Program-made: the position numbers and the translations under genes
Shown here: positions 1 to 64,000 of the stretch, piece after piece
How the letters are laid out: every line of letters begins with the position of its first letter
How positions within the stretch are numbered: the first letter of the stretch is position 1
The notes under the pieces: model-generated
Told to the model about the DNA's origin: nothing
Database searches by the model: none
The model's input: the letters and a program-made list of their open reading frames with translations, nothing else
Assembly (NCBI RefSeq): GCF_016432865.1
Contig: NC_067400.1
Coordinates: forward strand, 246,140,001 to 246,204,000
Origin: Antechinus flavipes
Lineage: Eukaryota
DNA length: 64,000 nt
Direction of reading: 5' to 3'

Positions 1-832
1 AATAAATGACATGTATTTTCTATTTGCCTTTGCATAGACTGGCTATCCAGCCTGTCCAGAAATCTTTCCTCTCATCTAACTTGCTCTTCAACATATTCTA
101 GTCCATTAGTCTCATTATAGTCCATCTTCTCCCAGTTTAAAACCCAACAGTGGTGCATGGGCTTGCTCACTTCCCTAAGTATCCTGTGCCTCTGCCTCTA
201 AGATGTTCTCTCGTCAACTCTCCCTTTTTGTTGCAGTCCCTCTGTATTTACATGTTCTCTCTAGTTTTAGGACTTTAAAGGCAGACAAAGAAAGGCATTC
301 TGTAGCCATTACTTATATTCCTAATATGAGGTTAGTGGAGGACAAAGTGTAAAAATTGGGGATTTCTGTTTTATCTGCTTTTGGAATAATTGTTGGATGG
401 ATAGACTCCAACACACTCTCAAGTCAAATCTGAAATTTGTATGAATCTCCTATCACTGGAGTGTCAAAGACCATTTATTTAGAGAAAGGATTTGACGGCT
501 GTAAAGAAGAATCAGAGCCAAGAAAGCATGTATAATGGAAGGAGGATGGTGACATTTTGGAGAACAATGCCATGAAGCTTGAGTAGGGCATCAGTCACAT
601 GCTTTAGCATACCTTTGGCAACATCATAATCATTCATATTATGGGAATGAGATTGTCACAGAACCTTGTCAGAAAAATGATGTATCAAGAGGGAAAAAAA
701 CAAAACAAAACATTAAGGAGCTGGTGGTGTCAGATGCCAAACAATTGCAAGAATGAGATTTTTCCCAGGGAATTTGGTTAATGGAAATGATGAAATCCTG
801 GCCTGACTCTGCCACATTTCCTGCTCAAAGAG

Positions 833-839
833 TATAAAA
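833..839 (+). promoter_or_regulatory. TATA box of K1
   Basis: TATAAAA 83 bp upstream of the ATG, at the homologous position in the paralogs. Confidence 0.85.
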
Positions 840-915
840 GCTGCTGTGCAGAAGGTGCCATACATACTCAAAGACCCTATCTGAAAATCCATCCACCCAA
901 GTGAATCCTGACACC

Positions 916-1149
916 ATGTGCTACTACGGCGGCTACTATGGGGGCCTGGGCTATGGCTATGGCTCTGGTTATGGCTGTGGATGCGGCTGTTTCCGTGGTC
1001 TAGGCTATGGCTATGGAGGCTGTGGCTATGGAGGCCTGGGCTATGGAGGCTATGGCTGTGGCTGTGGAGGCTATGGCTATGGAGGCTATGGCTATGGATG
1101 CTGCCGTCCATCTTGTTATGGAAGATATTCTTCTTATGGCTTCTACTGA
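916..1149 (+). CDS. KRTAP19-like: K1: high Gly/Tyr keratin-associated protein, 77 aa, single exon
   Basis: [28 protein letters not shown]...[16 protein letters not shown]. The start is the ACCATG at 916, not the GTG at 901 used by the ORF track. TATA and AATAAA are present. The N-terminus resembles KRTAP19 and the C-terminus resembles KRTAP20/19; exact orthology is uncertain. Confidence 0.93.
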
Positions 1150-1437
1150 AAAACCCCTTGCTACTGGACTGTCAAGGAATCTGTAGTCCTGGAAGGACAT
1201 CACCTTCCATCTGTTTCTACAGCTGTGCTACATGGAAAAACTACCACAACAGAGTCTAGCAATTTCCATGGCACATTCAGGGCAATGATGTGGCAGTGAC
1301 CAATAATGAGCAGGACTCATCCTTCTGAGAAGTGATGCAGACTCTCACCTATCATGAGAACATGATAGTTCTCCACCAACTCCTTCCCAGCAAGTTGGCT
1401 CACCTCTCATACATCATTGTGTCTTTTATGACTTTGC

Positions 1438-1443
1438 AATAAA
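1438..1443 (+). terminator. Poly(A) signal of K1
   Basis: AATAAA at the homologous 3' UTR position (caATAAActtg). Confidence 0.8.
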
Positions 1444-2115: not shown

Positions 2116-2239
2116 AGAAAATCCTTGTCACTCTCTTTTACTATTTTTTTTTCCTCTAGGGAATCTCAAGATCTGAAGCACAGCGCTAATTAATCGCAGA
2201 CTACAATAATCACAGAAAGGATCATTTACACAGTACAAA

Positions 2240-6286: not shown

Positions 6287-6293
6287 TATAAAA
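6287..6293 (+). promoter_or_regulatory. TATA box of K2
   Basis: TATAAAA 84 bp before the ATG. Confidence 0.85.
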
Positions 6294-6370
6294 ACTTCTG
6301 TTCAGATAATGCCATACATACTCAAAGACCCTATCCTGAAAATCCATCCACCCAAGTGAAACCTGACACC

Positions 6371-6619
6371 ATGTGCTACTACGGCGGCTGCTATGGGGGC
6401 CTGGGCTATGGCTATGGCTCTGGTTATGGCTGTGGATGTGGCTACTTCCGTGGCCTAGGTTATGGCTATGGAGGCTGTGGCTATGGAGGCCTGGGCTATG
6501 GAGGCTATGGCTGTGGCTGTGGAGGCTGTGGTTATGGAGGCCTGGGCTATGGAGGCTATGGTTATGGCTGCTGTCGCCCATCTTGCTGTGGAAGATATTA
6601 TTCTTATGGCTTCTACTGA
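6371..6619 (+). CDS. KRTAP19-like: K2: high Gly/Tyr keratin-associated protein, 82 aa
   Basis: [28 protein letters not shown]...[16 protein letters not shown]; ACCATG start, TATA and AATAAA present. Confidence 0.93.
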
Positions 6620-6904
6620 AAAACCCCTTGCTTCTGGACTATCAAGGAATCTGTATTCCTAGAAGGACATCACCTTCCATCTGTGTCTGCAGCTGGATTA
6701 CATGGGAAAGCTACCATAAGAGGGTCTAGCAATCCCCATGGCACATTCAGGGCACCAATGTGGCAGTAACCAAAAAAACAATAGGACCTGTCCTTCTGGG
6801 AAGTGATGCAGACTCTCACCTGTTATGAGAGTGACTTCTCCAACAACTCCTTCCTAGCAAGTTGGCTCACCTCTCATAGATTATTGTGTCTTTTATGACT
6901 TTGC

Positions 6905-6910
6905 AATAAA
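6905..6910 (+). terminator. Poly(A) signal of K2
   Basis: AATAAA at the homologous position. Confidence 0.8.
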
Positions 6911-9994: not shown

Positions 9995-10001
9995 TATAAA
10001 A
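9995..10001 (+). promoter_or_regulatory. TATA box of K3
   Basis: TATAAAA 84 bp before the ATG. Confidence 0.8.
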
Positions 10002-10078
10002 GTTCCTGTATATATGGTGCCATACATACTCACAGAACTTACCATTAACATCTATCCATCCAAGTGAATTCTGACACC

Positions 10079-10276
10079 ATGTGTTACTATAGTGGCTATT
10101 ATGGGGACCTGAGTTATGGCTGTGGTTCTGGTTATGGCTGCAGATGTGGCAGCTTTGGTGGTCTAGGATGTGGCCATGGAAGCTGTGGCTATGTAGGCTT
10201 AGGCTATGGCAGTTATGGCTATAGTTGCTGCCACCCATCTTGCTGTAGAAGATATTATTCTTATGGCTTCTACTGA
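10079..10276 (+). CDS. KRTAP19-like: K3: divergent high Gly/Tyr KRTAP, 65 aa
   Basis: [28 protein letters not shown]...[16 protein letters not shown]; open frame with TATA and AATAAA, but many substitutions at consensus Gly/Tyr/Arg positions. Confidence 0.82.
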
Positions 10277-10595
10277 AAAACACCTTGCTGAGGGCTCACA
10301 TGGAATACTTGATCCTCTCTACTTTGAGCTAATTCCATGATCTTGTAAGGTCATCACATTCCATCAGCTACTGCACCTGGTTGGCATGGGAAAGCTACCA
10401 CAAGATGGTCTTGAAATCTCCATGAAGCGTTCAGCACAGGGATATAGCAGGGATCATGAAGCAGCAGGACCTGTCCTTCTTGGACATGATGCAGTCTCTG
10501 ACCTGTCATCAGGGAGACTCCTTCAACAACAACTTCTTTCCAGTAAGTTTACTCACCTCTCATTTATTATAGCTGGGTGTAAGTTAAAACTTTCC

Positions 10596-10601
10596 AATAA
10601 A
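10596..10601 (+). terminator. Poly(A) signal of K3
   Basis: AATAAA at the homologous position. Confidence 0.78.
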
Positions 10602-18180: not shown

Positions 18181-18187
18181 TATAAAA
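18181..18187 (+). promoter_or_regulatory. TATA box of K4
   Basis: TATAAAA 84 bp before the ATG. Confidence 0.85.
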
Positions 18188-18264
18188 GTCCCTGTGTAGA
18201 TGGTGCTGTACACAAGCACAGAACCTACCCTCATCATCCTTCCAAATCTGGGAATCTTGACACA

Positions 18265-18462
18265 ATGAGCTACTATGGCAGCTACTATGGGGGCCTGGGC
18301 TATGGCTATGGCTCTGGTTATGGCTGTGGATGTGGCAGCTACCGTGGCCTAGGCTATGGCTTTGGAGGCTATGGCTATGGAGGCCTGGGCTATGGTGGCT
18401 ATGGCTATGGCTGCTGCCGTCCATCTTGCTGTGGAAGGTATTCTTCCTATGGCTTCTTCTGA
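18265..18462 (+). CDS. KRTAP19-like: K4: high Gly/Tyr KRTAP, 65 aa
   Basis: [28 protein letters not shown]...[16 protein letters not shown]; the track's ATG at 18151 lies upstream of the TATA box and is not used. Confidence 0.93.
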
Positions 18463-18773
18463 AAAACTCCTTGCTGTTGAGCCTTCTTGGAATCCTTGTT
18501 CCTCTCTGCTTTGAATTAATTCCATAGCCTTGTCACTTCCATCTATGTCCGCAGCCACATTACATGGGAGAGCTACAGCATCAGAGTTTTAGAATCCCCA
18601 CGGATCTCTTGGGGAGGAAAGTGGCAGGGACCACAAAGCGGCAGGACCTGTCTTTCTGGAAAATGATGCAGAATCTCATCTTTTATGAGAGAGATTCTTC
18701 TAACAACAACTCATTTCCAACAAGTTTTCTTAGCTCTGATATACCATGGCTGAGGTTTCTTTTATTATTTTCT

Positions 18774-18779
18774 AATAAA
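18774..18779 (+). terminator. Poly(A) signal of K4
   Basis: AATAAA at the homologous position. Confidence 0.8.
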
Positions 18780-23704: not shown

Positions 23705-23711
23705 TATAAAA
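23705..23711 (+). promoter_or_regulatory. TATA box of K5
   Basis: TATAAAA 84 bp before the ATG. Confidence 0.85.
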
Positions 23712-23788
23712 GTCCCTGTGTAGATCATGCTGTACACACTCACAGAATCTACCCTTAACATCCATCCAAATAAGTGAATCCTGACACC

Positions 23789-24016
23789 ATGAGCTACTAC
23801 GGCAGCTACTATGGAGGCCTGGGCTATGGCTATGGCTCTGGTTATGGCTGTGGATGTGGCAGCTACCGTGGCCTAGGCTATGGCTATGGCAGCTGTGGCT
23901 GTAGAGGCCTGGGCTATGGTGGCTATGGCTATGGAGGCTTGGGCTATGGTGGCTATGGCTATGGCTGCTGCCGCCCATCTTGCTGTGGAAGGTATTCTTC
24001 CTATGGCTTTTACTAA
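23789..24016 (+). CDS. KRTAP19-like: K5: high Gly/Tyr KRTAP, 75 aa
   Basis: [28 protein letters not shown]...[16 protein letters not shown]; ACCATG, TATA and AATAAA present. Confidence 0.94.
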
Positions 24017-24268
24017 AGAATTACCTGCTCCTGTGGTGTCCCTCCCTGCTTTGGATTAATTCCATGACCTTGGAAGGACATCACTTTCCATCTGCCTCTA
24101 CAGCTGGTTGGTGTGAGAGAACTATCACAAGAAGGTCTTGGAATCTCCAGGAAGCACTCAGGGCAGGGACCAAGAAGAAGCAGGACCTACCCTTCTGGGA
24201 AAAGATGCAGAATCTCCTCCAACAACAGCTCATTTCTACCATGGCTGAGTTTTCTGTTACTGCTTTTC

Positions 24269-24274
24269 AATAAA
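24269..24274 (+). terminator. Poly(A) signal of K5
   Basis: AATAAA at the homologous position. Confidence 0.8.
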
Positions 24275-29515: not shown

Positions 29516-31262
29516 AATACCTTTTTTTATTCCAGTATTCTAAAAATGAGATCTAGTCTTCCCTATTCCCCTAGTAACTTTCTATAGTTGGGTTTTGCCT
29601 ATTCATCTTTAAAAAAATAAAAGCTTTTTAGTATAATCACCACTAGTCCTGGTGAGGGGTGGAGGTGAATAATGTTTCTGGCTTCAGATCTTTCTGCTCT
29701 TCTCTCTGGAAGTCAAAACCCCAAACTCCATCCTCCTGTAAATGCCCACTGCTAGCAGCTTCCCTGCCCTATTGCTTTTGCACTCCCTGGGCATATGCTT
29801 GTTCCTTCTTAGTCAGGGCTGAGATTAATAGCACAGCTGATCTTGACATTCCCTATCACAGAGGTTCCCTCAATCTTCTTCTTCCCCTCAGACTTGCAAT
29901 TCTTCCTACTGTTCTGACCCAAGTAGCTTCAGGGATCCTCACTTGCTGTTTCAGCAGAGCTGCCCTGAAGATATTTACACTTCACACTAACCAAACCTCT
30001 GTCCTAGTTGTCCCAATAGGAACCACTGTTCTGTCCTTGCCCTTAATTATTTTTTCACCTTTTCACACATCTATGTTCATCCTAAGACACAGTTTTGTTT
30101 TGTTTGTGGGAGAAATCTAAAGAACTTGGAATTGTCTGATATATTCCATCACTTTCCCATAATCTTCTCTCCCAAAAAAATTTTCCTAAAGCTTTCTTTT
30201 GACTCCTAGGCCACATATGATAAATTCTTCTTGCTTCCTATTTTGTGTTGATTTAAATAGAGACATTCTGTTAGGTATGTCTACATCCCTAGTCTTGGTG
30301 TACTTTATTGCCTTACCCATATTTCATAGTCCTGCCTATGCTGACCTACTCTTGTTCCTCAGATAAAATACTACTTGCTCCTCCTTCTGCTTGCCTTTGC
30401 ACTGGCTAACTGTCCACTTTGCCCAGAATCCTCTCCTCTTTTTGCCTCTCCCACTTTACCTTCCCTGGTCCAAAAGAGTCTTAGCCCTAGTAGGACTTAT
30501 GCCACATAATCTATCTTTTTATTATGATGATTTGTGCCTTTCTTCTGAGATCTCCTCTGAAAGATTCTCTTTGTCTTACACAAGTACCTTGTTTTCATAT
30601 CCTCAGGGGTTTTGGAACTGCCAAATATAGGAACTTTTAAAACATTTCTTTATAGCCCCAGGCATGAGCACAGTGACTGGTACAGTGCAAACACTAGGGA
30701 CCCAGTTGGTACTTGAATTGATTTTGGAATTGTTTGATTGATGCATTCATATACCTGTGCCCAGTCACCATCTCACTTTCAATCTAAAACTAGTGTACTT
30801 ATGTCACTTAAGTCTCAAGAAACACTTTATAGAAGAGACAGGATTCAAATATCTGAATCAAAATCTGAATACCAGTGGAAAGTATGATGGAAAGAAATCA
30901 ATGTCATTTAACTGAGGTCTGCCTTGAAGCTTAAGGAGAGCATCACCCACACTAAACACATAGACCTTGGCAATACTACAGTCATGTGTTATTACAAAAA
31001 TGAGATCATAGCATAATCTTCTCAGAAAAAGAGTAGATCAAGAGAAAACAACCTTAATGAGCTAGGGGAATTGTTAGGGACCAAAGAAAGACAAGAATGT
31101 GATTTTGCCCTGGCAATTTGTTTAATGGGAATTATGCAATTCTGGAAGGATTCTCTGCAATACCTCCTACTGGAATTGTATAAACATCCTTGTGAAGCCC
31201 GTGCTGCACAAATGCATGCAAACCAAATCTTGTCATCATCTAAATCCTTGAATCTTGACACC

Positions 31263-31460
31263 ATGAGCTACTGTGGCAGTTACTGTGGGGGTCTGGGCTA
31301 TGGTTATGGCTCTGGTTATAGCTGTAGATGTGGCAGCTTCTGTGAGCTAGACTATGGCTATAGTGGTTATGACTATGGAGGCTTGGGCTATGGTGGCTAT
31401 GGCTATGGCTGCTGCTGTCCTTCTTATTGTGGAAGATATTATTCTTCTGGCTTCTACTGA
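31263..31460 (+). CDS. KRTAP19-like: K6: degenerating high Gly/Tyr KRTAP, 65 aa ORF (possible incipient pseudogene)
   Basis: [31 protein letters not shown]...[16 protein letters not shown]; TATA variant TATAAAC (31179), uORF 31216-31251, poly(A) signal AATGAA (31781). Confidence 0.72.
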
Positions 31461-32004
31461 AAAACCACCTTCTCCTGCAGCATCATGGAATCCTTGTCTG
31501 ACCAAGCTTGGGATAATTTCCATAGCATTATAAAATATCACATTTCATCTGCTTCTACAGCAAAGTGACATAGGAAAGATACTACAAGAGGGTCTTGGAA
31601 TCTCCATGGAACAATCAAGGGTGTGAAGTGGCAGGGACCAAGAAGCAGCAGGATCCATCCTTCGGGGAAATGATGCAGAATTTTGCATTTCATGAGGGAG
31701 ATTCCTCCAACAATAATTCATTCCCAGCAAGTTTGCTCAGCTCTGATAGACCATGGGTGAGGTGTCTGTTACAATGTTCTAATGAACCTTTTTCAGTCAC
31801 TGACTTATCAAAATTCTTTTAACCTGTCCTCCTTGACTTCACTATACTTGGGTTTTAAATTGAAAAGGTTTTTAATTTTAACCTATTCTTGAATGTCTTT
31901 GCAAAAGTTTTATTCTCCAAATCATCTTTTGCAAAGAAATGATACCTCTCTAGATTTCTATTGAAAAAAAATTTTTTTTGCAAAATTAATACTTTTAATT
32001 ATAT

Positions 32005-40136: not shown

Positions 40137-40600
40137 ATTCGATTTGGAAATTTAAATGATTCTTTCACTCCATTCTTAAACAGAACAGATTAAAAGGCAG
40201 AGGAATCTATAAGCTATCCAAAAAAAAAAAAAAAAAAAAAAAGCAGAAGATTAAGATGGCAAACATAATGGAAGTAGAAATATGTGAATGGGGGAGAGAA
40301 AGGCTATGAAGTTAGGCACCATCCACATTAATGATATGGGCTTGACAACACTATAATCATTTGCAATTATAAGAATGAGATCCTTGCAGAGCCTTCTCTG
40401 AGAAAGAACAAATCAAGAGAAAATAACCTTAATGAGCTTGAGAATTTATTCTCAGAGAACAAACAGTGACAAAAATGCAGTACTGGCTTGGGTCTCCCAC
40501 ACCTCCTGCTGGAAGTGTACAAAAGTCCCTATGCAGATAGTGCCTTATACATTCACACAACTTACCTTAACATTCATGAAATTAAGTGAATCCTGACATC

Positions 40601-40798
40601 ATGAACTACTATGGTGGCTACTATGGAGGCCTGGGCTATGGCTATGGCTCTGGTTATGGGTGTGGATGTGGCAGCTTCCGTGGCTTAGGCTATGGCTATG
40701 GCAGCTATGGCTATGGAGGCCTGGGCTATGGTGGCTATGGCTTTGGCTGCTGCTGCCCATCTTGTGGTGGAAGGTATTCTTCCTATGGCTTGTTCTGA
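40601..40798 (+). CDS. KRTAP19-like: K7: high Gly/Tyr KRTAP, 65 aa ORF with damaged regulatory signals
   Basis: [28 protein letters not shown]...[16 protein letters not shown]; TATA is TACAAAA (40518), uORF 40576-40596, poly(A) signal is AACAAA (41112). Confidence 0.78.
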
Positions 40799-42328
40799 AA
40801 AACCACCTGCTCCTGGCCGATCATTGAAACCTTGATCCTGTCTGTCTTAGGCTAATTCCACAACCTAGTAAAGATATCACATTCCATTTGCCTCTATGGC
40901 TAGGGAGCATGGAAGAGCTCAAACAACAGAGTCTTTGAATCCCTAAGGAGCACTCAGGTCACTTAAGTAGCAGTGATTCCAGCAGTATGATCCATCCTTC
41001 TGGGAAACTATGCAGAATTACAACTGTCACAAGGCAGACTCCTCCAACAACTCATTTCTAGCAATTTGTTGCTGTAATACACCATTGCTGAGGTGTCTGT
41101 TGTGAATTTCTAACAAACTTGATTCACTGACTTAGCAAAACCCTTTTTATCAGTATTCTTTGACCTCCCTCTAGTTTGGTTTCAGCTTCTCATCATAAAG
41201 AAATTTTCAACTTTGATATATTTATTTGTGTTTATTGCAGATTTGCTCTCCAATTTCTTTTTAGGAATGAGCTGATATCTCCACATTTCTGTTTGAAAAT
41301 CTTATATTTACTTGTTAAATATTTTTTCTAAAATTTAAATCTGTATTACTTACATTTTAATACTTCATAATAATCAACTCCTAGTTTTTCAAAGCCAAGG
41401 AATATGACTGAATAAGCTGCATCCCTACATTATACACATGGACAGGGACTTCATCTTCAAACTTTCAAAAAGATTAACATATTTATGGCTTCATGTTCAT
41501 GATTCATGATCTCCAGATTTAAGGCAACCCTGATGACTATCAGAATCTGGCTTAGCCTATGCCTTATCTAGCAGTCTTTCATAACTTCTTATCACCAAGC
41601 AATTTGAAGTTTTGAAGCACAGCACAAGTGAATGACACTCCAGAAAGAAACCAGAAAAAAAGCCATAACTAAATCTGGAGGTTGTCATAGAACCTTTGGT
41701 TGGCTAGCATCTCCTCCAGTCGACTAAACAATCAGTACAATTCAAAACACTGCCTTGAGCCAAAGACAGCCCCATACACAAGAGAACTAGATTCATTGCA
41801 AATGTTTCCTCCAAAGCACTCAAACACCTAACCACTAGTCAATCCAGACTTCAGAGAAAGAGATCATCTGCTTTTGCTGCTTCATAACCTGCCTCACTCT
41901 TTGGATTCCTCAATTCCACAAGGCAACATGGACTCCAAAATTATGTCTCTGAGATGGGTTCTTGGGAAGAAAGCCAAAGGTTTGCTCTCTGTCTGTATAT
42001 AGTAGATGCTTGATAAAGCATCTTGTGTTTCATATAGTGGAAGAAATAGTACAAACCTTATTCCTTCTGCTGTTTATTATATTAACATTAGATTAGATAG
42101 TAATTTATATTACTATATATCACTGCTAGCATTATTCTTCATTCACTAGACATCTTTTCATTTTTATGGTTCCACTAGCTTTTTTTTATAGAAATGCCCT
42201 CAGTAGCCTCATTACATTTGTTTTCTCCCAAAACATATTTCCAAATGATTCATCAGGTTTTTTTTTTCAAGACACATCCTATAGAAATCACTTCAGTGGA
42301 AACAAATCCTGGGAAATAATGCTCCTTT

Positions 42329-42460
42329 CATGACTCTTCAACAACTGCTCATTTCTAGAAGTCTGTTCAACTCTGATATAACACAGCAGAGGTGTATGTT
42401 ACAATGTTCTAAAATATATGTATCATTTTCTTATTGAAACTGTTTTCACCTTTCTTCCCT
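42329..42460 (+). pseudogene. Orphan KRTAP 3' UTR tail (gene deleted)
   Basis: 'gactcttcaacaactgctcatttctagaagtctgttcaactctgatataacacagcagaggtgtatgttacaatgttcta' matches the end of the paralogous 3' UTRs but is joined directly to mid-unit sequence. Confidence 0.75.
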
Positions 42461-42718
42461 AAGCTCCTAATACTTGAGTTTCAGCTTCACACCATGAAAA
42501 TATTTTTCATCTTGATCTACTATTCTGCATCATTACAGAATATTTATTACCCAATTTTGCAATGAAATGTGTAGATTGCCTGAATTCTAGAGAATTCATA
42601 TTTGAATTCTTGTATCCAAAGATACTTTGAACTACTTGAAACTACTTGAAACAAGGATACTTACAACAAGGTGTTAACTCAGTGCCATTGATGAGATGAT
42701 AGTTCTCTAGTTTACATA

Positions 42719-43733
42719 CCGTGTTTCCCCGATAATAAGACACTGTCTTATTATTTTTTTGGACAGAAAACCACCACAGGGCTTATTTTCAGGGGAGGGC
42801 TTATTTTAATGAACAATGACAGCAATTTTAATAAACAGGTAAATGTGAACAAAAACAAGTACCTTTATTCAATAATGATCATGTCATCTTCTTCAACAAC
42901 ATCGTCATAAGTGTCCATACCCTGAATTCTGTCCTGGATGTCTTGTGCCTCTATTTCCTTCAGAAGAAGTGGACCCAATCTGTCATGTCCAGCAATATAG
43001 CTCTCTTTAAATGAACATGTCTTGTCCAGGTAACCTGCTCGTAATGCCTTGGCGACACAGCTATCAGTAATTTTATCCCATGACTTCTTCACCCAAGTCA
43101 TGACTTCTTGCAGACAGGGCTTCACAAAGTTTCCACACTGATTTCTTTCCATTCTATTTTCAGTGTAGTCATTGACTTCCATGTGCAAATGGTCCTTGAA
43201 TGGCTTGTTTATTGCAATATCAAGGGTCTGGAGATAGGCAGTCATTCCTGCAGGAATCATTACTTGATCTATTCTTCTCTCTGCAAGGAAGTTCTTTCTT
43301 TAGCATGGTGAGTGCTGGCTGAGTTCTTCTTTTATCCTCCATCATGCCCCTTTTATCCTCCATCCCTTTTATCCATCCCCTCACTCCTGCTTACATACCA
43401 GGTTTTTATGTTGTCCTGCCTCAGCTCTCCTCCGCGGCACTGCTCTCAATGGCGCCAGCAAGCAAATCACTGGGGAAGAACAGGATGACACACTCACTGC
43501 TGCAGCTCTGATTGGATGCAGATTGGAGCGCGGCGTGCATTTCATCCGGGGGGAGGAGGAGGACGGTGCATACAGAGGGTACCATAATGTAGCGTGTAGC
43601 ACAGGGGATCACCTTCACTACAGTAGCAATCTCAATAGGGCTTATTTCCGGGGGAGAGCTTATTTTAGAGGAATCTTACACAGTAAGGGGAAGGCTTATT
43701 TTTGGGATAGGTCTTATTATCGGGGAAACATGG
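42719..43733 (-). mobile_element. Internally deleted Tc1/mariner-superfamily DNA transposon (pogo/Tc2 group) nested in the LTR
   Basis: TIRs CCGTGTTTCCCCGATAATAAGAC and GTCTTATTATCGGGGAAACATGG, flanked by TA on the left and CA (mutated TA) on the right; carries a transposase remnant. Confidence 0.9.
42865..43325 (-). pseudogene. pogo/Tc2-type DDE_1 transposase C-terminal remnant
   Basis: Open 131 aa MIPAGMTAYLQTLDIAINKPFKDHL...EDDMIIIE resembles the pogo 'IP.G.T..LQPLD..INKPFK' motif; a frameshifted upstream extension reads SASTHHAK...KNFLAERRIDQV. Confidence 0.88.
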
Positions 43734-45412
43734 CATACTTAGTACTTAAGTATGGTGATGTAATGGTTCTCTAGTTCACATATATTCAGTATGCTGTAAT
43801 GATGTAATTTTAATATGGTATTTAAGGGCTGAGAAAACTGGGGGCAGAGTCAGTTGGTCAGTCAGTCAGAGTGAACAGACTGTGAAGGAGTCAGACTGGG
43901 ACAGACTATGAAGGAGACAGTAAAGACTTTAGACTCTATTCCTCACCATTCTTGTGGTGACTATCCTGCTGAGACCAAGGACATCCAGAAGACCTCCAGA
44001 AAGCTTGCCTAGGCATTACAGAAATTATATCTCTTCAGATTTCTACTGGAAAATATATATTTCCTTCTTGAATGTTTTTCTAAAGTTTGATTTCAATAGC
44101 ACTTACATTTTAGTTCTTGGTAATATCTAATCCTAACTTTACCAAAGGTAAGGAATATATATCCATGTAAGCTGTGCCCCCTCCCCAACATGTTTTCTGT
44201 GCATATGGACAGAATTGTTTTCTTAAAGGTTTCAAAAAATTCATATATTCAGGGCCTCATATTTATGGTTCATAATCTTCAGATTCAAAGTTTACTTAAT
44301 GACTGCCAGAATTAGATTAGATTTTCCCTTGTCTAGCTATCTTCCACCACTTTATTATCACCAAGAAATTTGGAGTTTTGGAGCACCGCACAAGAAATTT
44401 CGGCAAACCACATAGAATACAGATGATAATCATATATGAAATTCTAAATTTGTCATGGAAACTTTCTCTTTAAGTGGGTACCATTTCCTATAGCCAGCCA
44501 CATGCTTTGTTGATTCAAATCATAACATTGCCCTTGAGCTGAAACCCACCCTTTCATCAGGGCTAGGTACTCATTCTTGCAAGGGAGTCCCCAAAATCAC
44601 TCAGACACCTCAGCTCTTTAATCAATTCAAACTCCCAGGGAAAGAGAATATCTACTTTGTCAGTCCACAATTGGCATTGAGGCATTTGGATTCTTGAGTT
44701 CCATATGCCAAGGATGGCCCCATAATGATGTGTTCCAGAAAAGTTCACAGGGAAAAATGTCAGAACTTCACACTCTAGGTATTTAATAAATGATTATTAG
44801 TTGAACTTTTATTTCAAACAGTGAACCAAACAATACAAGTATCACAATGGATCTTATTCTGCCTGCTGCTTTTTAGCTTGAAATTAATTTCTATTATTCC
44901 AGATGATTCCTAGGCATTATACTCCATTCATAAAAAGCCAGTTCACTTCTATGAATTCAATTGCTTTTCTAGAGAAATATCCTTAACATCCTCATTTCAA
45001 TCTATTCCTTCCAAAACACATCTCCAAATGATTCTCCAGTCCTTTTCCAGAACATTATATAGAGGTTACTTTAGTGGAAACTAATCCTTCAGGAAAATGA
45101 TCATTTCTTTCTTGGCTCATATTAGGCAAAGAATATTTTATTCTCTTTAGCAAAGTAGAAATTCAATTTCTGATGGGAAACTGTCACATCTGAATCCAAA
45201 TTCTCCTACATGGGAAAGTCAAAATAAAATAGGGCCTATTCTATATATTAGCCACTAAAACTCCTTAGTAGAGCTAGCACTACTAACCCTGAATATCCTA
45301 CAAGCCCAAGAGCCCCAGTTCATTCAAGTGAATGTCCTAGAGTCTGAATTGGAATCTGTACTTCTCAAAATGCTCTCCAGCTTAGGCAAAGATCAGCTAT
45401 GCCCTGAGAAGT

Positions 45413-45478
45413 GTGTATATATATATATACACACACACATATATATATATATATATACATATATAATATATATTCATA
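45413..45478 (+). repeat. (TA)n/(CA)n compound microsatellite
   Basis: Direct sequence. Confidence 0.9.
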
Positions 45479-46335
45479 TAATCTCAAGGTCACAATATGA
45501 TTTCTGGTGGTCAAATGATATCCTGTTGAAGCTGTTTATGCTTTAGAGTAGATTTGTAAAAGAATTGGAAGCTGGGAAGAGAGATGAGACAACTATTGAT
45601 GCCCCATGTTTCCTAACCAGAGAGCTATAGCCCACCTTCTCTTCTCTCTACTACATTCTCTCAATTAGTGAACTCCTAATTTCCCATGGATTCAATTCCT
45701 TTCTCTTTGCAGCTCACTAAACCAGTATTTCCCCTAAATTCACTTGTTCAACTGGATGTCTAAATACCCTGAATGCATTTTCCTACCTAAAATCATATAA
45801 TCAGCACTACTCAGTATTTATACAATTAAAAGGTCGATGACTTTATTGTGGTCTTTGGTGCCTACTAAGGAACTCTCTCTGACATCCTTGCATTGTCTTT
45901 GTTTGAAGGAATTATTCCATATAGTTGTGATTCACCACCTTAACTCCAATCTAAAACTTGTATGATTCTGTCACTTAAGTCTCAAGAAGTACATATTAAA
46001 AGACACTGAATTTCATAGCCTGCCAAAAAAAAAAAAAGTCAGAAGGCCAGGAAGACAAATATACTGGAAATAAGACAGTGCACCTGGGAAATTGTTGCCA
46101 TGAAGGCAGGTTAAGGCATATCACATTAACTATATGGACTTTGGAAACACTATAATAAACAAGATCCTGGCAGAGACTTCTCAGAGAAACATCAGATAGA
46201 GAGAAAATACCCTTAATAAGCTAAAGTAATCATTTTCATGGAAAAAAATTGAAAAAAATGTGATTTGTCTTTACAATTTCATTAATGTGAATTAATGTGA
46301 ATGAAATGAATCTGGCATCCTTTCTGCTGGATGTG

Positions 46336-46342
46336 TATAAAA
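46336..46342 (+). promoter_or_regulatory. TATA box of pseudogene K8
   Basis: TATAAAA intact. Confidence 0.75.
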
Positions 46343-46414
46343 GTCCCCATACAGATGGTACTGTATACTCTTACAACTTCTTGACATTAATCCAAATTTG
46401 TGAATCCTGATAAA

Positions 46415-46627
46415 ACGAGATACTATGGCAGCAATTATAGGGGCCTGAACTATAGCTGAGGCTATGGATATGGCTCCTTCCATAGCCTAGTTTATGGCTG
46501 TGGTAGATATGGCTATGGAGGCTTAGGTTATGGTGGTTATGGCTATGGAATCTACAGCTATGGAGGCTATGGCCATGGATGCTGCTGCTCATCTTGCTGG
46601 GGAAGTTATTATTTTTCTGGCTTCTAA
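46415..46627 (+). pseudogene. K8: KRTAP pseudogene
   Basis: Start codon is ACG (46415) and there is an in-frame TGA at 46457; the remainder still reads [24 protein letters not shown]...[15 protein letters not shown]-stop. Confidence 0.9.
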
Positions 46628-46938
46628 TAAAAAAAAACCATATACACCTGCAGCATGGAATCCTTGTTTGAGCCTGCTTAAAGTAATTTCTTGGCCTAGG
46701 GAGGCATCATATTCTATCTGCTACTATAGCTGGGTATCATGAAAGAGAGTCCTGGAATTTACATGAAGATCTCAGAGCACTGAAATGACAGGGACTGAAA
46801 AGCCGCAAGACTTGTCCTTCTGGGAAAGGATGCAGAATTTCACCTATAATTAGAGAGACCCCTCCCCCAACAACAGCTTATCCCCACAAGTTTGCTCCAG
46901 TCTTCTACACTTGGTTGAGATGTATGTCACTATGTTCT

Positions 46939-46944
46939 AATAAA
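46939..46944 (+). terminator. Poly(A) signal of K8
   Basis: AATAAA intact. Confidence 0.7.
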
Positions 46945-48424
46945 CTTGTTTTACTGGCATAGCAAAACTGTTTTCACCTCTCCTCCTTGACCTCCTAGTG
47001 CTTGGGTTTCAGCCTCATATTGTGAAGAGATTTTCAATTATGACCTATATTGGAAAATATTTGTAATCTAATTCATCTTTTGCAATGAAAGAATACATCC
47101 CAAGATTTCTATTGAAAAATAAAAATCATATTATTTCTTTGTTGAATGTCTTTATAAAAATTCTTATTTGTTCTACTTTTATTTATTTTAGGACTTCATA
47201 ATGGTCAACCCTAATTTTACTGAAGATAAGGCATTTGTCCCTATAAACTATTTTTCTTCTCCTATTTTCTCCATGCACATAGGCATGATTTTCATCTTCA
47301 AGGTTTCAAAAAGATTCACATGATCAGGGCCACACGTTTATCATTCATGACCTTCAGATCCAAGGTGTCCCTAACAAATACCAAAATTTGGTTTTGCCTA
47401 TCCTGTCTACCAGTATTTCAATGTGAAGTTTTATGGCACAGCACAAATGAATGGCACAGAAAAAAAAAAGAGTAGAAAAGGGAGTTTTGGACTTCAAGTC
47501 CAAAAGTTTCCATGACAACTTTCCCTTTGAGTGTTGTTCATCTCCTCACTGACTCACATCATTGTCCTAGAACTGAAGCCTATCTAGTAGACTATTTTCT
47601 GCACAGATATCCTATAAATCACTCAAACAATTGAACTCTCTAATCAACTCAATTCCCTGTCTGCTTGGCTGCCCCACAATAGTTTTGGGGACCTTTGTAT
47701 ATTTTCAACTTCTTAACCCAACGTGGCCCTTGTAATCCTGTCCCTCTAAGGGGTTCTTGGGAAGAAAATCAAAGTTTAGCACTCTACTTGGCACATAGTA
47801 GGTTACAGATTAACTATCACCTCCATTTTTTGAGGACTAGTTCCTTAAACCCTTCTTCATACAGTCTCAAGTTCATAATGGGATTATGGGTTGTCATGTA
47901 ACATCCTATTGGGTTTGTTTATCTTTTAGATATAGTTCTGCTATAGTCTACTAGATAGTATAGTTCTGAAAGATTTGTAAGTTGAGAAGAGAAATGAGAC
48001 ACCTATTGTGGCCCTAAATGTCTTGAGATCATTTTGTTCCTGGTCAATTGAAGTCTTTCTAAAATTTTTCACAATCACAAAAACTAAAACCTGCCTCCTC
48101 CTCTCTCTACCACACTATCTCAGTTGGTGATTTCCTCATAAGTTTATTTCCCTTCTTTTTTACACTCACTACTGCCATTTCCAAGAATAATATAGAATCT
48201 CCCCTGAACTCATATGTCTCACTGGTGTCTAAATATGCCTGAATGCAGGATTCTAAAGAATCAGAAGGCCAGGCCCAATTTTCACACATTCCCTCCTACA
48301 ATTGTCATTTTCCCTTTCTGTCATGTCTGACTCTTCTTGATGTCATTTGGGATTTTCTCTTGCAAAATACTACAGTGGTTTGGCATTTCCTCTGCAATCA
48401 CATATTACACTCCCCACCTTAGAT

Positions 48425-52965: not shown

Positions 52966-52972
52966 TATAAAA
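52966..52972 (+). promoter_or_regulatory. TATA box of K9
   Basis: TATAAAA 82 bp before the ATG. Confidence 0.85.
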
Positions 52973-53047
52973 GTCTCCATGCAGGTGGTGCTGTACACAT
53001 TCACAACTTCTCACTGACATCAAACCAAATCTGTAAAACCTGAAACC

Positions 53048-53275
53048 ATGAGCTACTACGGCGGCTACTATGGAGGACTGGGCTATGGCTATGGCTCTGG
53101 TTATGGCTGTGGATGTGGCAGCTACCGTGGCCTAGGCTATGGCTATGGCAGCTGTGGCTATGGAGGCCTGGGCTATGGTGGCTATGGCTATGGAGGCCTG
53201 GGCTATGGTAACTATGGCTATGGCTGCTGCCGCCCATCTTGCTGTGGAAGATATTCTTCTTATGGCTTCTATTGA
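53048..53275 (+). CDS. KRTAP19-like: K9: high Gly/Tyr KRTAP, 75 aa
   Basis: [28 protein letters not shown]...[16 protein letters not shown]; ACCATG, TATA and AATAAA present. Confidence 0.95.
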
Positions 53276-53584
53276 AAAACTGTTTGCTTCTGAGTTGTCA
53301 TGGAATCCTTGGGTTTGGAGATATTTCCACAGCATGTAAAATACATCATTGTATCTTCTTCTACTGCCTGGTATCATGGGAAAACTACCGTGAAAAGAAT
53401 TTGGAATTCCTCTGGAGACTCAAAACAATAAAGTGGCAGAAACTGAAAAGCAGCAGGATCCATCCTTCTAGGAAATGATGCAGAATTTCACTTGTCATGA
53501 AGGAGACTCCTCCAATGACAGCTCATTTTCAGCAATTTGTTCGTCTTTAATACACCATTGCTGAGGTGTCTATTATGAATTTCT

Positions 53585-53590
53585 AATAAA
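53585..53590 (+). terminator. Poly(A) signal of K9
   Basis: AATAAA at the homologous position. Confidence 0.8.
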
Positions 53591-55669: not shown

Positions 55670-56791
55670 GAAAACCTTGCTTATTAGGTTCTGGACCCCC
55701 ATCTTCAAGAAAAGCTGTTTTTTCCAAATATCCAATGATGTCCTCTTAGCCAAAATTTATGGTGTCCTCTGAGTTTTCCTTTTTCTTGATCTCCCTTTTG
55801 GCTTTTGAGAACACTGGCCAACTGCTGTTCCTGGGTGTGTTTGACACTGTACTTCCAATATGACTATTCCTTTCCAGTCACCCTAACTAATGTATTATCA
55901 TGTCATTTCATTCCCATTATCTCTAGCTGAATCCTGAACTTCCATTTCTTTTCTTTTAAAAATTTTTAAAATTTCTTTTCTTTTCTCCCTAATATGCTCT
56001 CTCCAAGGGTAAAAAAAAGTAGACCTTCCTTAAATCTCAGAGTTTCAGGGATTTTCTCTCTGCCAAATTCAGATCTGTATCTCTCCTGAGATCCAGTCCC
56101 ACATTGTGAGCTGTCTGATTACATATTTTCAACTTGCTGTCCCCCAGACATCTCAAAGCTCCCCCCACCCAAGTCTAGAATAGATTTCCTTATCCTGCCT
56201 TATTAAAAGCACCCTACCTCTTCACAACCTCTCTACTCCATTGAAGGGCACTAATATCAAATTAAGAACTTAGGTTCCTAACCTCAGGGCCCTCCTTGAC
56301 CCTTCACTTTCATTGCAACTATCTGATCAGTTGGCAAAATTAGTTTTTTACTTTTACAACATCTCTTGAACCCAAAGACTACTCTGCAAGACAAAATCCC
56401 CAACCTCACTGTAAGAATCTTTAGTTGGTCTCCCTGCCTAAATCTTCCCACCCAAATCCAACCTCTACTTAGCCGCCCTAAGAATTGCCCTAAAGCACTC
56501 ATCTTATTCTTCTTCCCATTCGAACCCATAAAAGTCCCAGCCCTCTCTCATTGTTTCCTTTTCAGTATTTATTTAAAAATACATCTTCTTTCTGATATTT
56601 CACTCTCTTCTTACTTTTCTAAGGTTAGTATATTTTAATCACCCTACCCAAATATTATGGTCTTGTCTTTTCTGGCCTATCTGCTTATACTCAAATGATG
56701 TACTACATGTCCTGCCTATTTTCCTTTTCACTGATTATTAGCCCTGCCCAGAATTCTCTCTCTTTCTGCCCCTCCTCTCTGACTTTCCCTG
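55670..56791 (+). mobile_element. Ancient L2 remnant fused directly to the K10 5' UTR
   Basis: L2 motifs ('atctctcctgagatccagtcccacattg', 'gttggtctccctgcct', 'gccctgcccagaattctctc') end at 'gactttccctg'. Confidence 0.7.
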
Positions 56792-56850
56792 TTATACATA
56801 CTCACTTAACCTATTTTTGACATTTCTCCAAATTAGTGAATGCTAAAACA

Positions 56851-57042
56851 ATGAGCTACTATGGCAGCTACTATGGGGGTTTGGGCTATGGCTATGGCAC
56901 TGGTTATGGCTGTGGATGTGGCAGCTTCCATGGCCTAGGCTATAGCTATGGTGGCTATAGCTGTAGAGGACTGGGCTATGGTGGCTATGGCTGTTGCCAC
57001 CCATCTTGTTATGGAACATATTATTCTTCTAGCTTCTACTGA
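56851..57042 (+). CDS. KRTAP19-like: K10: high Gly/Tyr KRTAP, 63 aa ORF with no promoter (probable pseudogene)
   Basis: [28 protein letters not shown]...[16 protein letters not shown]; promoter and TATA deleted, uORF 56840-56854 overlaps the ATG, poly(A) signal is AATCAA (57357). Confidence 0.7.
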
Positions 57043-57448
57043 AAAAATTTTTGCTCCGGATTGTCATGGAATCCCTGTCCCTCTGTTTTTTGGGCTAATT
57101 CCATGGTATGGACATCACATTCCATCTGCCTTTGTGGTGGGATGGCATGGGAAATCTACCACAAGAGGGTCTTGGAATCTCTGGAGCATGGGCAAGGTAG
57201 ACCCTTGTACGGGCAAGGAATAATAGGGATCCCTTCTTCTGGGAAATGATGTAGAATCTCATCTGTCATGAGGGAGACTGCCCCAATGACAGCTCATTTC
57301 CAGCAAGTTTGTTCAGCTCTGACATACCACAGCTGAAGTGTCTGTTAAAACTTTATAATCAACTTGTTTCTTTAATTTAGCAAAGTTTCTCATCTCTCCA
57401 CCTTAAAGTCCCTATACTTGGGTTTCATTCTCATATAATGAAGACATT

Positions 57449-57503
<55 letters not shown>

Positions 57504-57507
57504 GTAT
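57449..57507 (+). repeat. (TG)n(TA)n microsatellite
   Basis: Direct sequence. Confidence 0.95.
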
Positions 57508-57551
57508 ATAAAATTTTTTCATTAAATATCTTTCTGAAATTTAAGTATTTT

Positions 57552-59624: not shown

Positions 59625-61210
59625 CTTGCTCATTCTAATTAGCTTACTGTCATGTTATTTTATTCACATTTATTCTGGATGAACCTCAAGATTGTGCCTT
59701 TTTTGCTTTCCTTACCATTATATCTCTCTTCCATTCACTGGGCAGCACCAGCTTTGAATCTCTCCTGAGCTTATCATATATCATATGCTGTCGATGTACA
59801 CAATCTTAAGTTGATATTCCCTAGACATTTCAAAGTTTAGAACATAGCTCCTCATCCTACTTATTCAAAAGCAGCCTACCACTTCTCTAACTCTACTACT
59901 TTAATAGCATTTTCTTGCTGCCAGGAACTCAGGATCAGACTTTCAGAGACATGCTTAAAATTTCTCTGTCATTTCACCTGTCCAACCAGTTGGCAAAATT
60001 TGTCCTTGTACTTGAACCACATCCCTGGAATAGTTATCCTTCTTTGACCTCATACATTCACCATCTTAGATCAGGGCCTCACAGTATTTTTCTGAAAGAG
60101 CCTTGTGATTAACCTTCCTATCTCAGAACACTTCCCAGAATAATCCATCCTCCACTCTGGTGTCCAAGGGATTTTCCTAAAACATTCATCTTACTCCTCA
60201 CCTCCTTCAACATTCAACCCCCGAGCCTCACACATGTTATCTGGTAAATGCTTACCTCCTGTTCTGTCCTAGTACAAATTGATACTATTGTCTGATATTT
60301 CACCCTCTTCCTAAACTGGTTTCTTTCCTTTCCAATTTGGTGTAGTCTATTCCCCTCTCCATATTTTATAGTCTGTCCCTTGAAAGTTTAAGTGCTTTCC
60401 CACAAGTGATAAACTTTTTGTCCCTTCTCATTGCCTTTATATTGCCATGCTATCCAACCTTCTCAACCTTCTATTTTCCCTTCTCCTCTGACTTTCCCTC
60501 TTTCTTTGAGTCTCAATTTTCACATAGTCGATCTTCTCCCATCAACTCTCCATGTTTGTGACAATTCTCACTGACCTTGGAATTTTAGAGTTACCCAGGA
60601 GCATCCCCTATACTGAAAACAGTTGTTGGCACATTGCAAACATTAGAGAAATGTTGAGGTACTTTCAGAATAGTAGTTTTATTAACCTATTCCATAAACC
60701 AGTGCTTAACCACCATCTCAAGTCCAATATGAAACTTGCATGACTAATTTGGTCTCAAATAGCACTGATTGAAAGAGACAGCATTCAACTACCTACCTAA
60801 GAAATCAGAAGGTCTACATGGCAATCAGTCCTTCATAATGGAAGGACAGTGTCACCCAGGAGATTAATGTCATGAAACCTGGGTAGGGCACCAGTAATAT
60901 AAAATATATAGGCTTTGACAACACTATAATCACTTCCCATTATAGAAACACGTTCATAGCATAGTCTTTTCAGAGAAATAGCAAATGGAGAGAAAACACC
61001 CTTAATGAACTGTATGATTTGTTCTTAAGAAACAAAACATGAGAAAAAGGCGATATTTCTTTGACAGGAAACATTATTTTTTAATTGGAAATAAGCATTT
61101 CTACTGAGAATCTACCACATCTCCTGATGGTAAAGTCCTATGCAGATTTTGCTACATACATTCATACAATCTATCCTTGACATCCATCCAACTAAATTAA
61201 TACTGACACA

Positions 61211-61400
61211 ATGAGCTACTATGTTAAGTACTACTGGGATCTGGGTTAATACTCTGGCTCTGATTATAGTCATACATGTAGCAACTTCCCTGGCCTGAGT
61301 TATATGACTAAGGCTATGAAAGCCTAAGCTATGATGGCTTTGGCTATAGGCACTATTGCCCATCTTGCTGTCAAGATTTTAGCCTTCTGGATTCTACTAA
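61211..61400 (+). pseudogene. K11: KRTAP pseudogene
   Basis: ATG AGC TAC TAT GTT AAG TAC TAC TGG GAT CTG GGT TAA (stop at 61247), further indels, TATA deleted ('atggtaaagtcc'), 3' UTR truncated. Confidence 0.88.
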
Positions 61401-63519
61401 AAATACCTGTTCCTCAGCTATCCTGGAATCCTTATTCCCCTTTGCCCCTACCATGTTTAGATCTAATTTCATGAGTTTGTAAAAATGTCAAATTTCCTCA
61501 GTCTATATAGCTGACTGGAAAACTCATAGTCCATTACTTCTCAGAATGTGGATCAGACCATCACCTACTTGCCGGCTTGGTTTTCATTATTTTGTAATTT
61601 CCCACAAATTTGCAGTTATAGAGCATTGCATATATATTACATATAGTGCACATAATATACAGTGCATATTACAGAGCATTGTAAATAGCACATCACTGAG
61701 ATTATAAAAAAAGAATCATAAACCAAGCCATAAGGTTGAGATGACACTATGCCCTTCTGATAGGTCCTGTCTTCTCTAGCCAGCTGTACTTTGTCCACTC
61801 CACAACACTGCCCTTGAATTGATGTCCTTTCAATGGCAAAGGAAAAAGAATAATTTTAAAAGAACATTTCTAAAATTCCTGAAAAATCTGGACTCACTAA
61901 TCAACTAAAACATCTTCTCTTAAAAAGAGAAGATGAGCTTTACTGCTTCACAGCTGACTTTGGACATTTGGCCCCCCAAATCATATCCTTCAGATAGATC
62001 CTTTGGAAGAAATCCTAAGTTTAGCATTCTCTGTGGCACATAGTGAGCATCTAAAAAATGTTTATTGATTGAAATGTTAATTGACTGAACTAGTGTTTCA
62101 GGAAGTGGAGGAAAAGCTACAAGTACTGCTGGTAACTGCTCATATCCCTCCTGTAGTTTATCTTAAAATTGTGGTGTGTGAATTTGTGCGTGTATGTGAT
62201 TCCAAGCCCTTATTCTCCATTCAAAAAAAAAAAACATATATGTTTCTGTGGATTTAGTGACTTTTCAAGGGAAATTTCTTCAATAGACTCATTTCATTGA
62301 ATCCTCCCAAATCCAAATGATTCATCAATCCTTTTCCAGGAGACATCTAATGAAAGTTATTTCAATGAAAAACTTATTCTTCTGGGAAATGATGTTTTCT
62401 TTCTTTGACAGTTCTCAGTGGGAAAAGAATGATTTATTCTCTAGAATATGAAAAACGAAAAATCATTTTGTGAGGGGAAAGAACACCTATCAATTCAAAT
62501 TCTCATACACAGAAACAACATAGGTAGCAATTGTACTTCATGGTAGCCATTTTAAAAAAACTTTAAGGGAGCTGATAAAATCTCCTGACTGTCTTTTAAG
62601 CTTAGAAAACCCAGTAGCCTGCAAAGAAATGTCATAAGCTGTTATTAGCTGGAATCTTTTCTTGCAAATGGTCTGTAATTCTCTAGATGCTCTATACCTA
62701 TACCAAGTCATAAATAGTACAGGTTATAGTTGGATCATCACTCTATATTCCCAAAATCTAGTTTCTGATGCTCCTTTTATTCATTTGCAAGATCACATTA
62801 GAATGTCTGGCTGACATATGACAATTTGTTGAAAATAATTATCCTTTAGAATGAAATTTAGAGAGATTTAGTAACAGGAAGGGAGGAGTGATGTCCTTTG
62901 CTTGTCCCAATCACTTTGACTTCATTTTTCTCATAATTGGTTAAAGTTTTTCTGAGATGCCCCCCAACCAGAGAACTATGTCTTACTTCTTTCCTCTCCA
63001 CTACACTCAATATCATTTAACAATATCTTCATCTGACATGGGCTCAGTTGTTTTCTCTCTGATATTTAAACTATCACATCTCAAGTTCCAGAATAGCATT
63101 TTCCCTGAACTCATTTGTCTAGTGGCTGTCTACCAATGCCAAAAATGTATGAGCCTACCCAATTTGAACTACCAGTACTTTTCAGTACTTCCACATTTAA
63201 AAAGTCCTTGACTATATTACAATCAGCAGCACCTACTCCTTCCTGAACTCCTTTTATTGTCTTTGAAAGTCTGACTCTAACATTCAAGAATAACTATCTC
63301 CCATGTGCCCAGTGATGTCCATGGCCAAAATTAATAGCTTCATCTGAATTTTCCTTCTTACTCTCCCATTGGCTCTTAAAAATTCTAGTTAATTGTTACT
63401 CCTGAGTAGATCTGACACTACATTTTTAACCAAATTGTTCATTTCCAGTGGCCTTTTAAACTTTTTTATTGTTTGGTGAAAGAGTAACTATTTCTAAGCT
63501 CTTGGGGCTTCAGAGTACT

Positions 63520-63725
63520 TCTCTCTGTGTGTGTCTCTCTCATTATCTCTGTCTACCTATCTCTCTGTCTCTGTCTCTGACTCTGTGAATGTGTCTCTGT
63601 TTCTCTCTCTCTCTATCACGGTGTGTGTGTCTCTGTCTCTGTCTTGTGTTTCTCTCTTTTTGTCACAATGCCCATGTCTTTTTCTTTGCCTCTGTTTGTC
63701 TCTCTATCTGTGTGTTTCTTGTCCT
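63520..63725 (+). repeat. CT/GT-rich low-complexity simple repeat
   Basis: Degenerate (CT)n/(GT)n/(CTGT)n. Confidence 0.85.
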
Positions 63726-64000
63726 CTCCCCTCCCATTCATTGTCACATCTTCAAACATTGCCAGAATTCTCTCTTGAATTTTATTACCATACCATGAAC
63801 TATCAGATTAAACAATTTCAATTTGATGGCTCCTACATATTTCAAAACCCTCAATTCTACAATAAACCTCCTCATTTTGTTTCTTCAAAGAAACTTATCT
63901 ATCCAAAATTTCTCTACAGTTTTCAAGGAAACTACCATCAATCTAGGAAATCAAATTCTGAGACTTGGGGAAGGTCTTAACTTCTCATGTTTATCATCCA

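What the first reader, a model, noticed from the sequence alone, without database searches (positions are those of the whole stretch)
1..64000. Marsupial Gly/Tyr hair-KRTAP array caught mid birth-and-death, with many modes of gene death side by side
Seen: at least 13 tandem units. Five copies are clean (K1, K2, K4, K5, K9) and one is divergent (K3). Three have an open ORF but broken regulatory signals (K6, K7, K10), two are coding pseudogenes (K8, K11), and two units have lost the gene (13.7 kb, 42.3 kb). Established: high Gly/Tyr KRTAPs are single-exon hair-shaft matrix genes found in tandem clusters. Inference: this is a lineage-specific expansion of one KRTAP19/20-hybrid-like type (KRTAP19-like N-terminus, [16 protein letters not shown]-terminus). 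ORF-only annotation would count 9 genes, whereas perhaps 5-6 are functional.
Basis: partly seen in the sequence, partly recalled or inferred. Interest (0 to 1): 0.7.

Follow-up and report, generated by a model that had tools for sequence, protein, structure and literature searches.

The report
Old marsupial hair-protein gene array
This window is the middle of a known marsupial cluster of about 56 tiny hair-protein gene copies, mostly old and partly dead; the coding parts of distant copies are unexpectedly alike even at silent positions, likely because the copies overwrite each other by recombination.

Summary
The 13 units and their lesions are real. The window is a fifth of a 360-kb array of 56 Gly/Tyr keratin-associated protein units (48 open frames, 42 with TATA and AATAAA) between KRTAP8/7/11 and claudin-17 of a dasyurid marsupial. 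It is the positional ortholog of the opossum KRTAP20 cluster; the marsupial KRTAP20 expansion with pseudogenes is already published. 'Caught mid birth-and-death', 'lineage-specific' and 'hybrid' overstate it: window copies differ 29-37% in far flanks (about 35 Myr or older), and eutherian KAP19/20 proteins carry both termini. Broken-signal copies do carry more amino-acid decay (median 7 vs 1). Expression could not be tested. New here: silent coding sites diverge at about a third of the flank rate (K5 versus a copy 129 kb away: 4 of 228 bases, flanks about 30%), and several units are chimeras switching at the coding region. That suggests coding-limited gene conversion, as described for KRTAP1 but reported near-absent for KRTAP20; silent-site constraint is not excluded. 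The scan noted old spacer relics in another genome's KRTAP array.

The parts
833..1443 (+). K1: TATA 833, CDS 916-1149 (77 aa), AATAAA 1438; intact; chimeric flanks relative to a paralog 29 kb upstream
6287..6910 (+). K2: TATA 6287, CDS 6371-6619 (82 aa), AATAAA 6905; intact
9995..10601 (+). K3: CDS 10079-10276 (65 aa), both signals intact, 8 rare amino-acid changes in 46 scored codons
12997..14243 (+). Gene-less unit: upstream flank joined at about 13745/13746 to downstream flank; TATA, CDS and 3'UTR missing (about 1.1 kb)
18181..18779 (+). K4: CDS 18265-18462 (65 aa), AATAAA 18774; intact
23705..24274 (+). K5: CDS 23789-24016 (75 aa), AATAAA 24269; intact; CDS differs at 4 of 228 bases from copies 129-141 kb away whose flanks differ 29-34%
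31179..31786 (+). K6: CDS 31263-31460 open, poly(A) signal AATGAA at 31781, 10 rare amino-acid changes
40518..41117 (+). K7: TACAAA 40518, CDS 40601-40798 open, AACAAA 41112, 5 rare amino-acid changes
42308..45600 (+). Gene-less unit: 3'UTR end (about 42310-42570) and downstream flank (about 44030-45600), split by a 1.3-kb repeat insertion
   Evidence: junction bridged in two other DNA runs
46336..46944 (+). K8: coding pseudogene 46415-46630 (start codon lost, stop at codon 15); TATA 46336 and AATAAA 46939 intact
52966..53590 (+). K9: CDS 53048-53275 (75 aa), AATAAA at 53427 and 53585; intact
56790..57362 (+). K10: CDS 56851-57042 open; promoter with TATA deleted (junction about 56793); AATCAA 57357; 7 rare amino-acid changes
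61033..61520 (+). K11: coding pseudogene 61211-61400 (stop at codon 13, frameshifts), TATA lost, 3'UTR truncated

Best explanation
The window is the most decayed middle part of an old tandem array of marsupial KRTAP20-type genes that likely encode small Gly/Tyr hair-matrix proteins, and whose near-identical coding regions likely act as pairing sites for recombination between copies. Shown: array anatomy, synteny, lesions, flank divergence, low silent divergence, chimeric units. Inferred: unequal crossing-over adds and deletes units; short conversion tracts filtered by selection keep coding regions alike while flanks drift; a copy that loses its TATA box or poly(A) signal leaves selection, gathers amino-acid and silent changes, then stops and deletions. 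Odds: identity and old birth-and-death 0.9; conversion as main cause of the silent-site likeness about 0.6.
For: Synteny KRTAP11-1, 7-1, 8-1, array, claudin-17, named by exact look-up, with the same order and ORF lengths (426, 264, 192 nt) as the opossum chr4 cluster. 56 CDS-bearing units: 48 ORFs, 8 coding pseudogenes. Far-flank K2P median 0.33 over 20 pairs (21 of 55 window pairs alignable, K1/K2 set apart). Four-fold site diversity 0.152 vs 0.32 for context-matched flank sites in 41 copies, p=6e-4. Simulation on the flank tree with amino-acid selection gives silent p 0.31-0.34; observed 0.123; 0 of 60 runs reach it at 100, 75 or 50% of the flank rate, with or without CpG effect. [quoted passage not shown] Chimeric units: u50/u51 5' 4.7% vs 3' 26% (p=1e-13), u21/u25, K1/u20, u38/u40 (uncorrected, 1176 pairs). 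GC at four-fold sites 0.59 vs 0.39 in flanks. Broken-signal ORFs: median 7 rare changes vs 1, p=6e-4 (5 vs 39 copies).
Against: The apparent excess homoplasy of silent sites (retention index 0.28 vs 0.49-0.58) largely vanished when matched for minor-allele count. Silent likeness does not clearly follow physical distance (partial Mantel r=0.13, p=0.09). Several codon states follow the flank clades. The 28 copies were chosen for few amino-acid changes, which biases silent divergence down. PMC2528016 and PMC4180150 report almost no conversion in KRTAP20. Only K1 among window copies is a clear flank chimera.
Confidence: 0.7

Rival explanations
1. Same old birth-and-death array, but the silent sites are alike because selection acts on them directly (codon use, mRNA structure or coding-region regulatory elements), not because of conversion.
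For: No frequency-matched excess homoplasy and no clear distance effect; most silent deviations are scattered C-to-T changes from one consensus; silent and amino-acid changes rise together (Spearman 0.59).
Against: The fixed codons are position-specific (different Gly codons fixed at different positions), which simple codon preference does not predict; chimeric units show that paralogs do recombine at the coding region.
Confidence: 0.3
2. One reading: a recent, lineage-specific burst of one KRTAP19/20 hybrid gene, caught while copies are being born and dying.
For: Young duplicates exist elsewhere in the array (flank K2P 0.06-0.13 among u46-u54); 7 of 13 window units are damaged.
Against: Window copies are old (K2P 0.32 or more except K1/K2); K7 and K8 flanks have 92-94% identical counterparts in two other coded organisms, far closer than any paralog; similar arrays in opossum and wallaby; both termini occur in eutherian proteins.
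Confidence: 0.08
3. The MSYY-type and MCYY-type copies are the marsupial co-orthologs of eutherian KRTAP19 and KRTAP20, so the split is as old as therian mammals.
For: MCYY copies u06-u28 form one flank clade (support 100) lying nearer KRTAP8 than most MSYY copies, the same order as human KRTAP19 then KRTAP20 then KRTAP8.
Against: The MCYY clade nests among MSYY copies at similar flank distance (0.36-0.5); the Ser-to-Cys change is one base and recurs in u46-u50; PMC4180150 finds KRTAP19 only in eutherians.
Confidence: 0.1

Closest known systems
Opossum and wallaby KRTAP20 expansion (Wu 2008, PMC2528016; Khan 2014, PMC4180150)
   Same: Same locus and order beside KRTAP8-1, 7-1, 11-1; tandem, almost all one strand; intact ORFs 168-294 nt in opossum, 183-294 nt here; pseudogenes interspersed (5 of 31 opossum copies on that side; 8 of 56 here); KRTAP13-type block missing.
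   Different: More copies on this side (56 vs 31); no second block beyond KRTAP11 in 96 kb searched, where opossum has 8; both papers report near-zero conversion in KRTAP20, whereas flank-versus-coding comparison here suggests it.
Eutherian KRTAP1 coding-limited concerted evolution (Zhou et al., bioRxiv 10.1101/282418)
   Same: Coding regions alike, silent sites included, flanks divergent, abrupt change at start and stop codons.
   Different: KRTAP1 is a stable four-copy high-sulphur family tested across species; here a high Gly/Tyr family of about 56 units with gene death, tested in one genome only.
Eutherian KRTAP19/KRTAP20 proteins
   Same: PF11759, shared N- and C-terminal motifs, same cluster position in human.
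   Different: Humans have 2 KRTAP20 copies; KRTAP6, 19 and 21 are reported absent in wallaby.

Membership tests
High Gly/Tyr KRTAP (PF11759) | Pfam KRTAP domain above curated cut-off | tested here: met
   9 of 9 window ORFs, 27.5-39.7 bits vs cut-off 21.1
High Gly/Tyr KRTAP (PF11759) | Short protein rich in Gly and Tyr | tested here: met
   63-82 aa, Gly+Tyr 49-69%, Cys 9-15%
High Gly/Tyr KRTAP (PF11759) | Single-exon gene with TATA box and poly(A) signal | tested here: met
   Contiguous ORFs, TATAAA near -84 and AATAAA at +250-320 in 6 of 9 window ORFs and 42 of 48 in the array; transcript structure itself not seen
High Gly/Tyr KRTAP (PF11759) | Expression in hair-follicle cortex and presence in hair matrix | not testable with these tools
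   No run on record as RNA; only contigs available
Marsupial KRTAP20 cluster | Position between KRTAP8/7/11 and the claudin side | tested here: met
   KRTAP11-1, 7-1, 8-1 upstream and claudin-17 downstream; opossum table
Marsupial KRTAP20 cluster | Phylogenetic grouping with KRTAP20 rather than KRTAP19 | tested here: inconclusive
   Homologs are named KAP6-2-like, 19-like and 20-2-like; low-complexity proteins, no outgroup DNA obtained
KRTAP1-type coding-limited concerted evolution | Silent coding sites more alike than flanks, sharp boundary at start and stop | tested here: met
KRTAP1-type coding-limited concerted evolution | Coding tree groups by species while flank tree groups by ortholog | not testable with these tools
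   No other marsupial genome is served; the two supplements searched list coordinates, no sequences found
KRTAP1-type coding-limited concerted evolution | Silent variants shared across non-sister paralogs | tested here: inconclusive
   Retention-index deficit mostly lost after frequency matching

The most novel reading that the evidence does not exclude
The marsupial KRTAP20 array is homogenised by gene conversion confined to coding regions across more than 100 kb while flanks record duplications 35 Myr or older. This overturns the published view that high Gly/Tyr KRTAPs escape conversion and undermines the positive-selection signals reported for opossum and wallaby KRTAP20; loss of a promoter or poly(A) signal marks a copy's exit from the homogenised pool.
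Probability: 0.55. Interest if true: 0.45.

Novelty: new member of a known kind. Interest (0 to 1): 0.3.

Why it matters
As a gene array it is ordinary: another marsupial KRTAP20 cluster. It matters modestly in two ways. Coding-only trees and dS badly underestimate copy ages here, and the two standard surveys relied on an absence of conversion to accept positive selection in this subfamily. The graded lesions (poly(A) only, TATA plus poly(A), promoter deletion, coding death with intact signals) also give a ready test set for which signal loss silences a single-exon gene.

Tried and rejected
Expression: no RNA holder listed; four coded runs were laid on 40000-47500 only. Contigs of two runs guessed to be RNA touch the K7 3'UTR and K8, but also K8 promoter and sequence past its poly(A) site, and contigs cannot rank genes: no verdict. 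Outgroup DNA: metagenome scan found 0 relatives among 598 pattern matches; no KRTAP sequences found in the Khan supplements. Exact look-up: 0 of 9 window ORFs are in the protein collection; uninformative, since annotations may extend the N-terminus (as P0003). AU test rejected flank trees for the coding blocks, but it had no overfitting control and too few replicates, so it is not used. Homoplasy and distance tests were inconclusive. Neutral ORF survival: 8-32% at 0.10 substitutions per site, under 1-13% at 0.20, so K6, K7, K10 were not neutral since birth but may be neutral now. Window more decayed than the rest (6 of 13 vs 36 of 48 intact units), p=0.09. K10, K11, u09, u56 and u62 flank distances are inflated by deletions or insertions and were not used for dating. 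A moved rather than lost KRTAP13/24/26/27 block: rejected, 1 PMG match of 19 candidates, KRTAP11-1 itself, and no KRTAP in 70 kb round the second claudin. No fold or complex was run: low-complexity 65-80 aa proteins would not bear on the question.
Full report
Observation. Six-frame translation and self-alignment show nine intact Gly/Tyr ORFs and two coding pseudogenes on the + strand, embedded in homologous units whose flanks align at 62-72% (K1/K2 82%). All nine ORFs pass the Pfam KRTAP cut-off. Contigs of two other DNA runs, about 99% identical, bridge the 42.3 kb junction. Whether the two remnants lost a gene or arose as partial duplicates cannot be told for certain; the 13.7 kb unit keeps both flanks, which favours deletion.

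Context. A search of the own genome returned 57 matches from 55 scored candidates, all within 246.007-246.355 Mb of contig C3. In 464 kb fetched around the window a unit profile finds 56 CDS-bearing units: 48 ORFs and 8 coding pseudogenes, plus five gene-less remnants counting the 13.7 kb one. Of the 48 ORFs, 42 have both a TATA box and AATAAA; six do not (u11, u12, K6, K7, K10, u60). The array lies between KRTAP11-1, 7-1, 8-1 and claudin-17; exact look-up names these four proteins as Antechinus flavipes records on a contig of the same length as C3.

What is known. Wu 2008 (PMC2528016; passages, section 10, supplement 1 parts 1 and 5 seen) lists 42 opossum KRTAP20 genes, 31 of them, 5 pseudogenes included, next to KRTAP8-1, 7-1 and 11-1 with the same ORF lengths as here; it reports conversion events close to zero and positive selection. 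Khan 2014 (PMC4180150; passages, section 8 part 1, supplement search rows) gives wallaby 38 KRTAP20 and no KRTAP6, 19 or 21, again without detected conversion. So the family, the marsupial expansion and interspersed pseudogenes are in print. The 'hybrid' label fails because named eutherian KAP19-like and KAP20-like proteins already join both motifs.

Age. In a flank tree of 56 units, window copies other than K1/K2 have nearest paralogs at K2P 0.32 or more. Far flanks give a median of 0.33 (range 0.29-0.37, 20 pairs; 21 of 55 pairs alignable; local alignments bias this down) and 0.20 for K1/K2. At 0.0045 substitutions per site per Myr, a SINE-derived rate that its authors found faster than the others they tried (PMC3403934, passages), that is about 37 and 22 Myr; slower rates make them older. 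K7 and K8 flanks have 92-94% identical counterparts in two other coded organisms. Young duplicates exist, but outside the window (u17-u27 with K1/K2 at its edge, u38-u40, u46-u54).

Death. Rare amino-acid changes in 46 scored codons: K1 1, K2 2, K4 1, K5 0, K9 0; K3 8, K6 10, K7 5, K10 7. Array-wide, broken-signal ORFs have a median of 7 against 1 (5 vs 39; u03, u11, u42, u44 dropped for indels in the blocks; p=6e-4). This supports the inference that they are leaving selection; expression was not testable. K3 decays despite intact signals.

The unexpected part. K5 differs from u50 and u51, 129 and 141 kb away, at 4 of 228 coding bases, with 1 of 38-39 four-fold sites changed where about 12 are expected from flanks differing 30-31% (p about 1e-5 per pair, pairs not independent). 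Over 41 copies four-fold diversity is 0.152 against 0.32 for context-matched flank sites. Simulation with amino-acid selection alone needs a silent rate near a third of the flank rate (28 copies chosen for few amino-acid changes). Several units are chimeras whose likeness to a partner switches at the coding region, the clearest u50/u51 (0-7% over 900 bases upstream, 20-35% right after the stop) and, in the window, K1/u20. This matches the KRTAP1 pattern of Zhou et al. (bioRxiv 10.1101/282418; abstract, passages, first part of Results; supplements not seen), explained there by short conversion tracts plus selection. Tests on coding sequences alone would miss whole-CDS homogenisation (inference). 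Against: frequency-matched homoplasy and distance tests were not significant, and some codon states follow flank clades, so selection on silent sites remains open. Searches listed no paper on coding-limited conversion in marsupial KRTAP20; only listings were read for most hits and the library lacks most subscription journals.

Verdict. Observation confirmed; interpretation partly supported; a new member of a known kind, interest 0.3. The role as hair-matrix proteins rests on established knowledge of the family, not on a test here.

Noticed in passing
window 42643-43980: A repeat insertion splitting the 42.3 kb remnant: an LTR-like element carrying a nested 1.03-kb internally deleted DNA transposon with terminal inverted repeats (42717-43742) and a DDE_1 fragment; 92% identical to another copy in the array. 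Very deep cover in two DNA runs, none over most of its interior in one other run. The pogo/Tc2-like label is recalled.
   Followed up: partly
G000:C3:246069000-246071750 (L013-L014): Public protein P0001 (132 aa, named KAP6-2-like) is a fusion of two neighbouring single-exon copies, u10 and u11: likely an annotation chimera.
   Followed up: partly
L038:216-887 and L056:5236-5907: Claudin-17 abuts the array (about 7 kb from the last unit), while its closest paralog (55% identical; claudin-8-like by recall) lies 75 Mb away on C3 with no KRTAP beside it. In human the two are neighbours (recalled).
   Followed up: partly
G000:C3:245860001-245956000 (L041-L048, L001-L002): No KRTAP20-like block beyond KRTAP11-1, where opossum has 8 copies.
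   Followed up: yes
window 40754-40802: One contig (depth 6) of coded organism A skips the last 14 codons and stop of the K7 counterpart, hinting that it is dead there; single contig, may be chimeric.
   Followed up: no
window 36000-38700: A LINE-like repeat, mostly antisense to the genes, 77-89% identical to other copies in the region, between K6 and K7.
   Followed up: no
L051 (G000:C3:246428208-246429789): Two retrovirus-like open frames (integrase-like and envelope-like by recall) downstream of claudin-17; observed only.
   Followed up: no
L009-L010 and L031: Three array units (u06, u07, u52) are inverted relative to the other 53.
   Followed up: no
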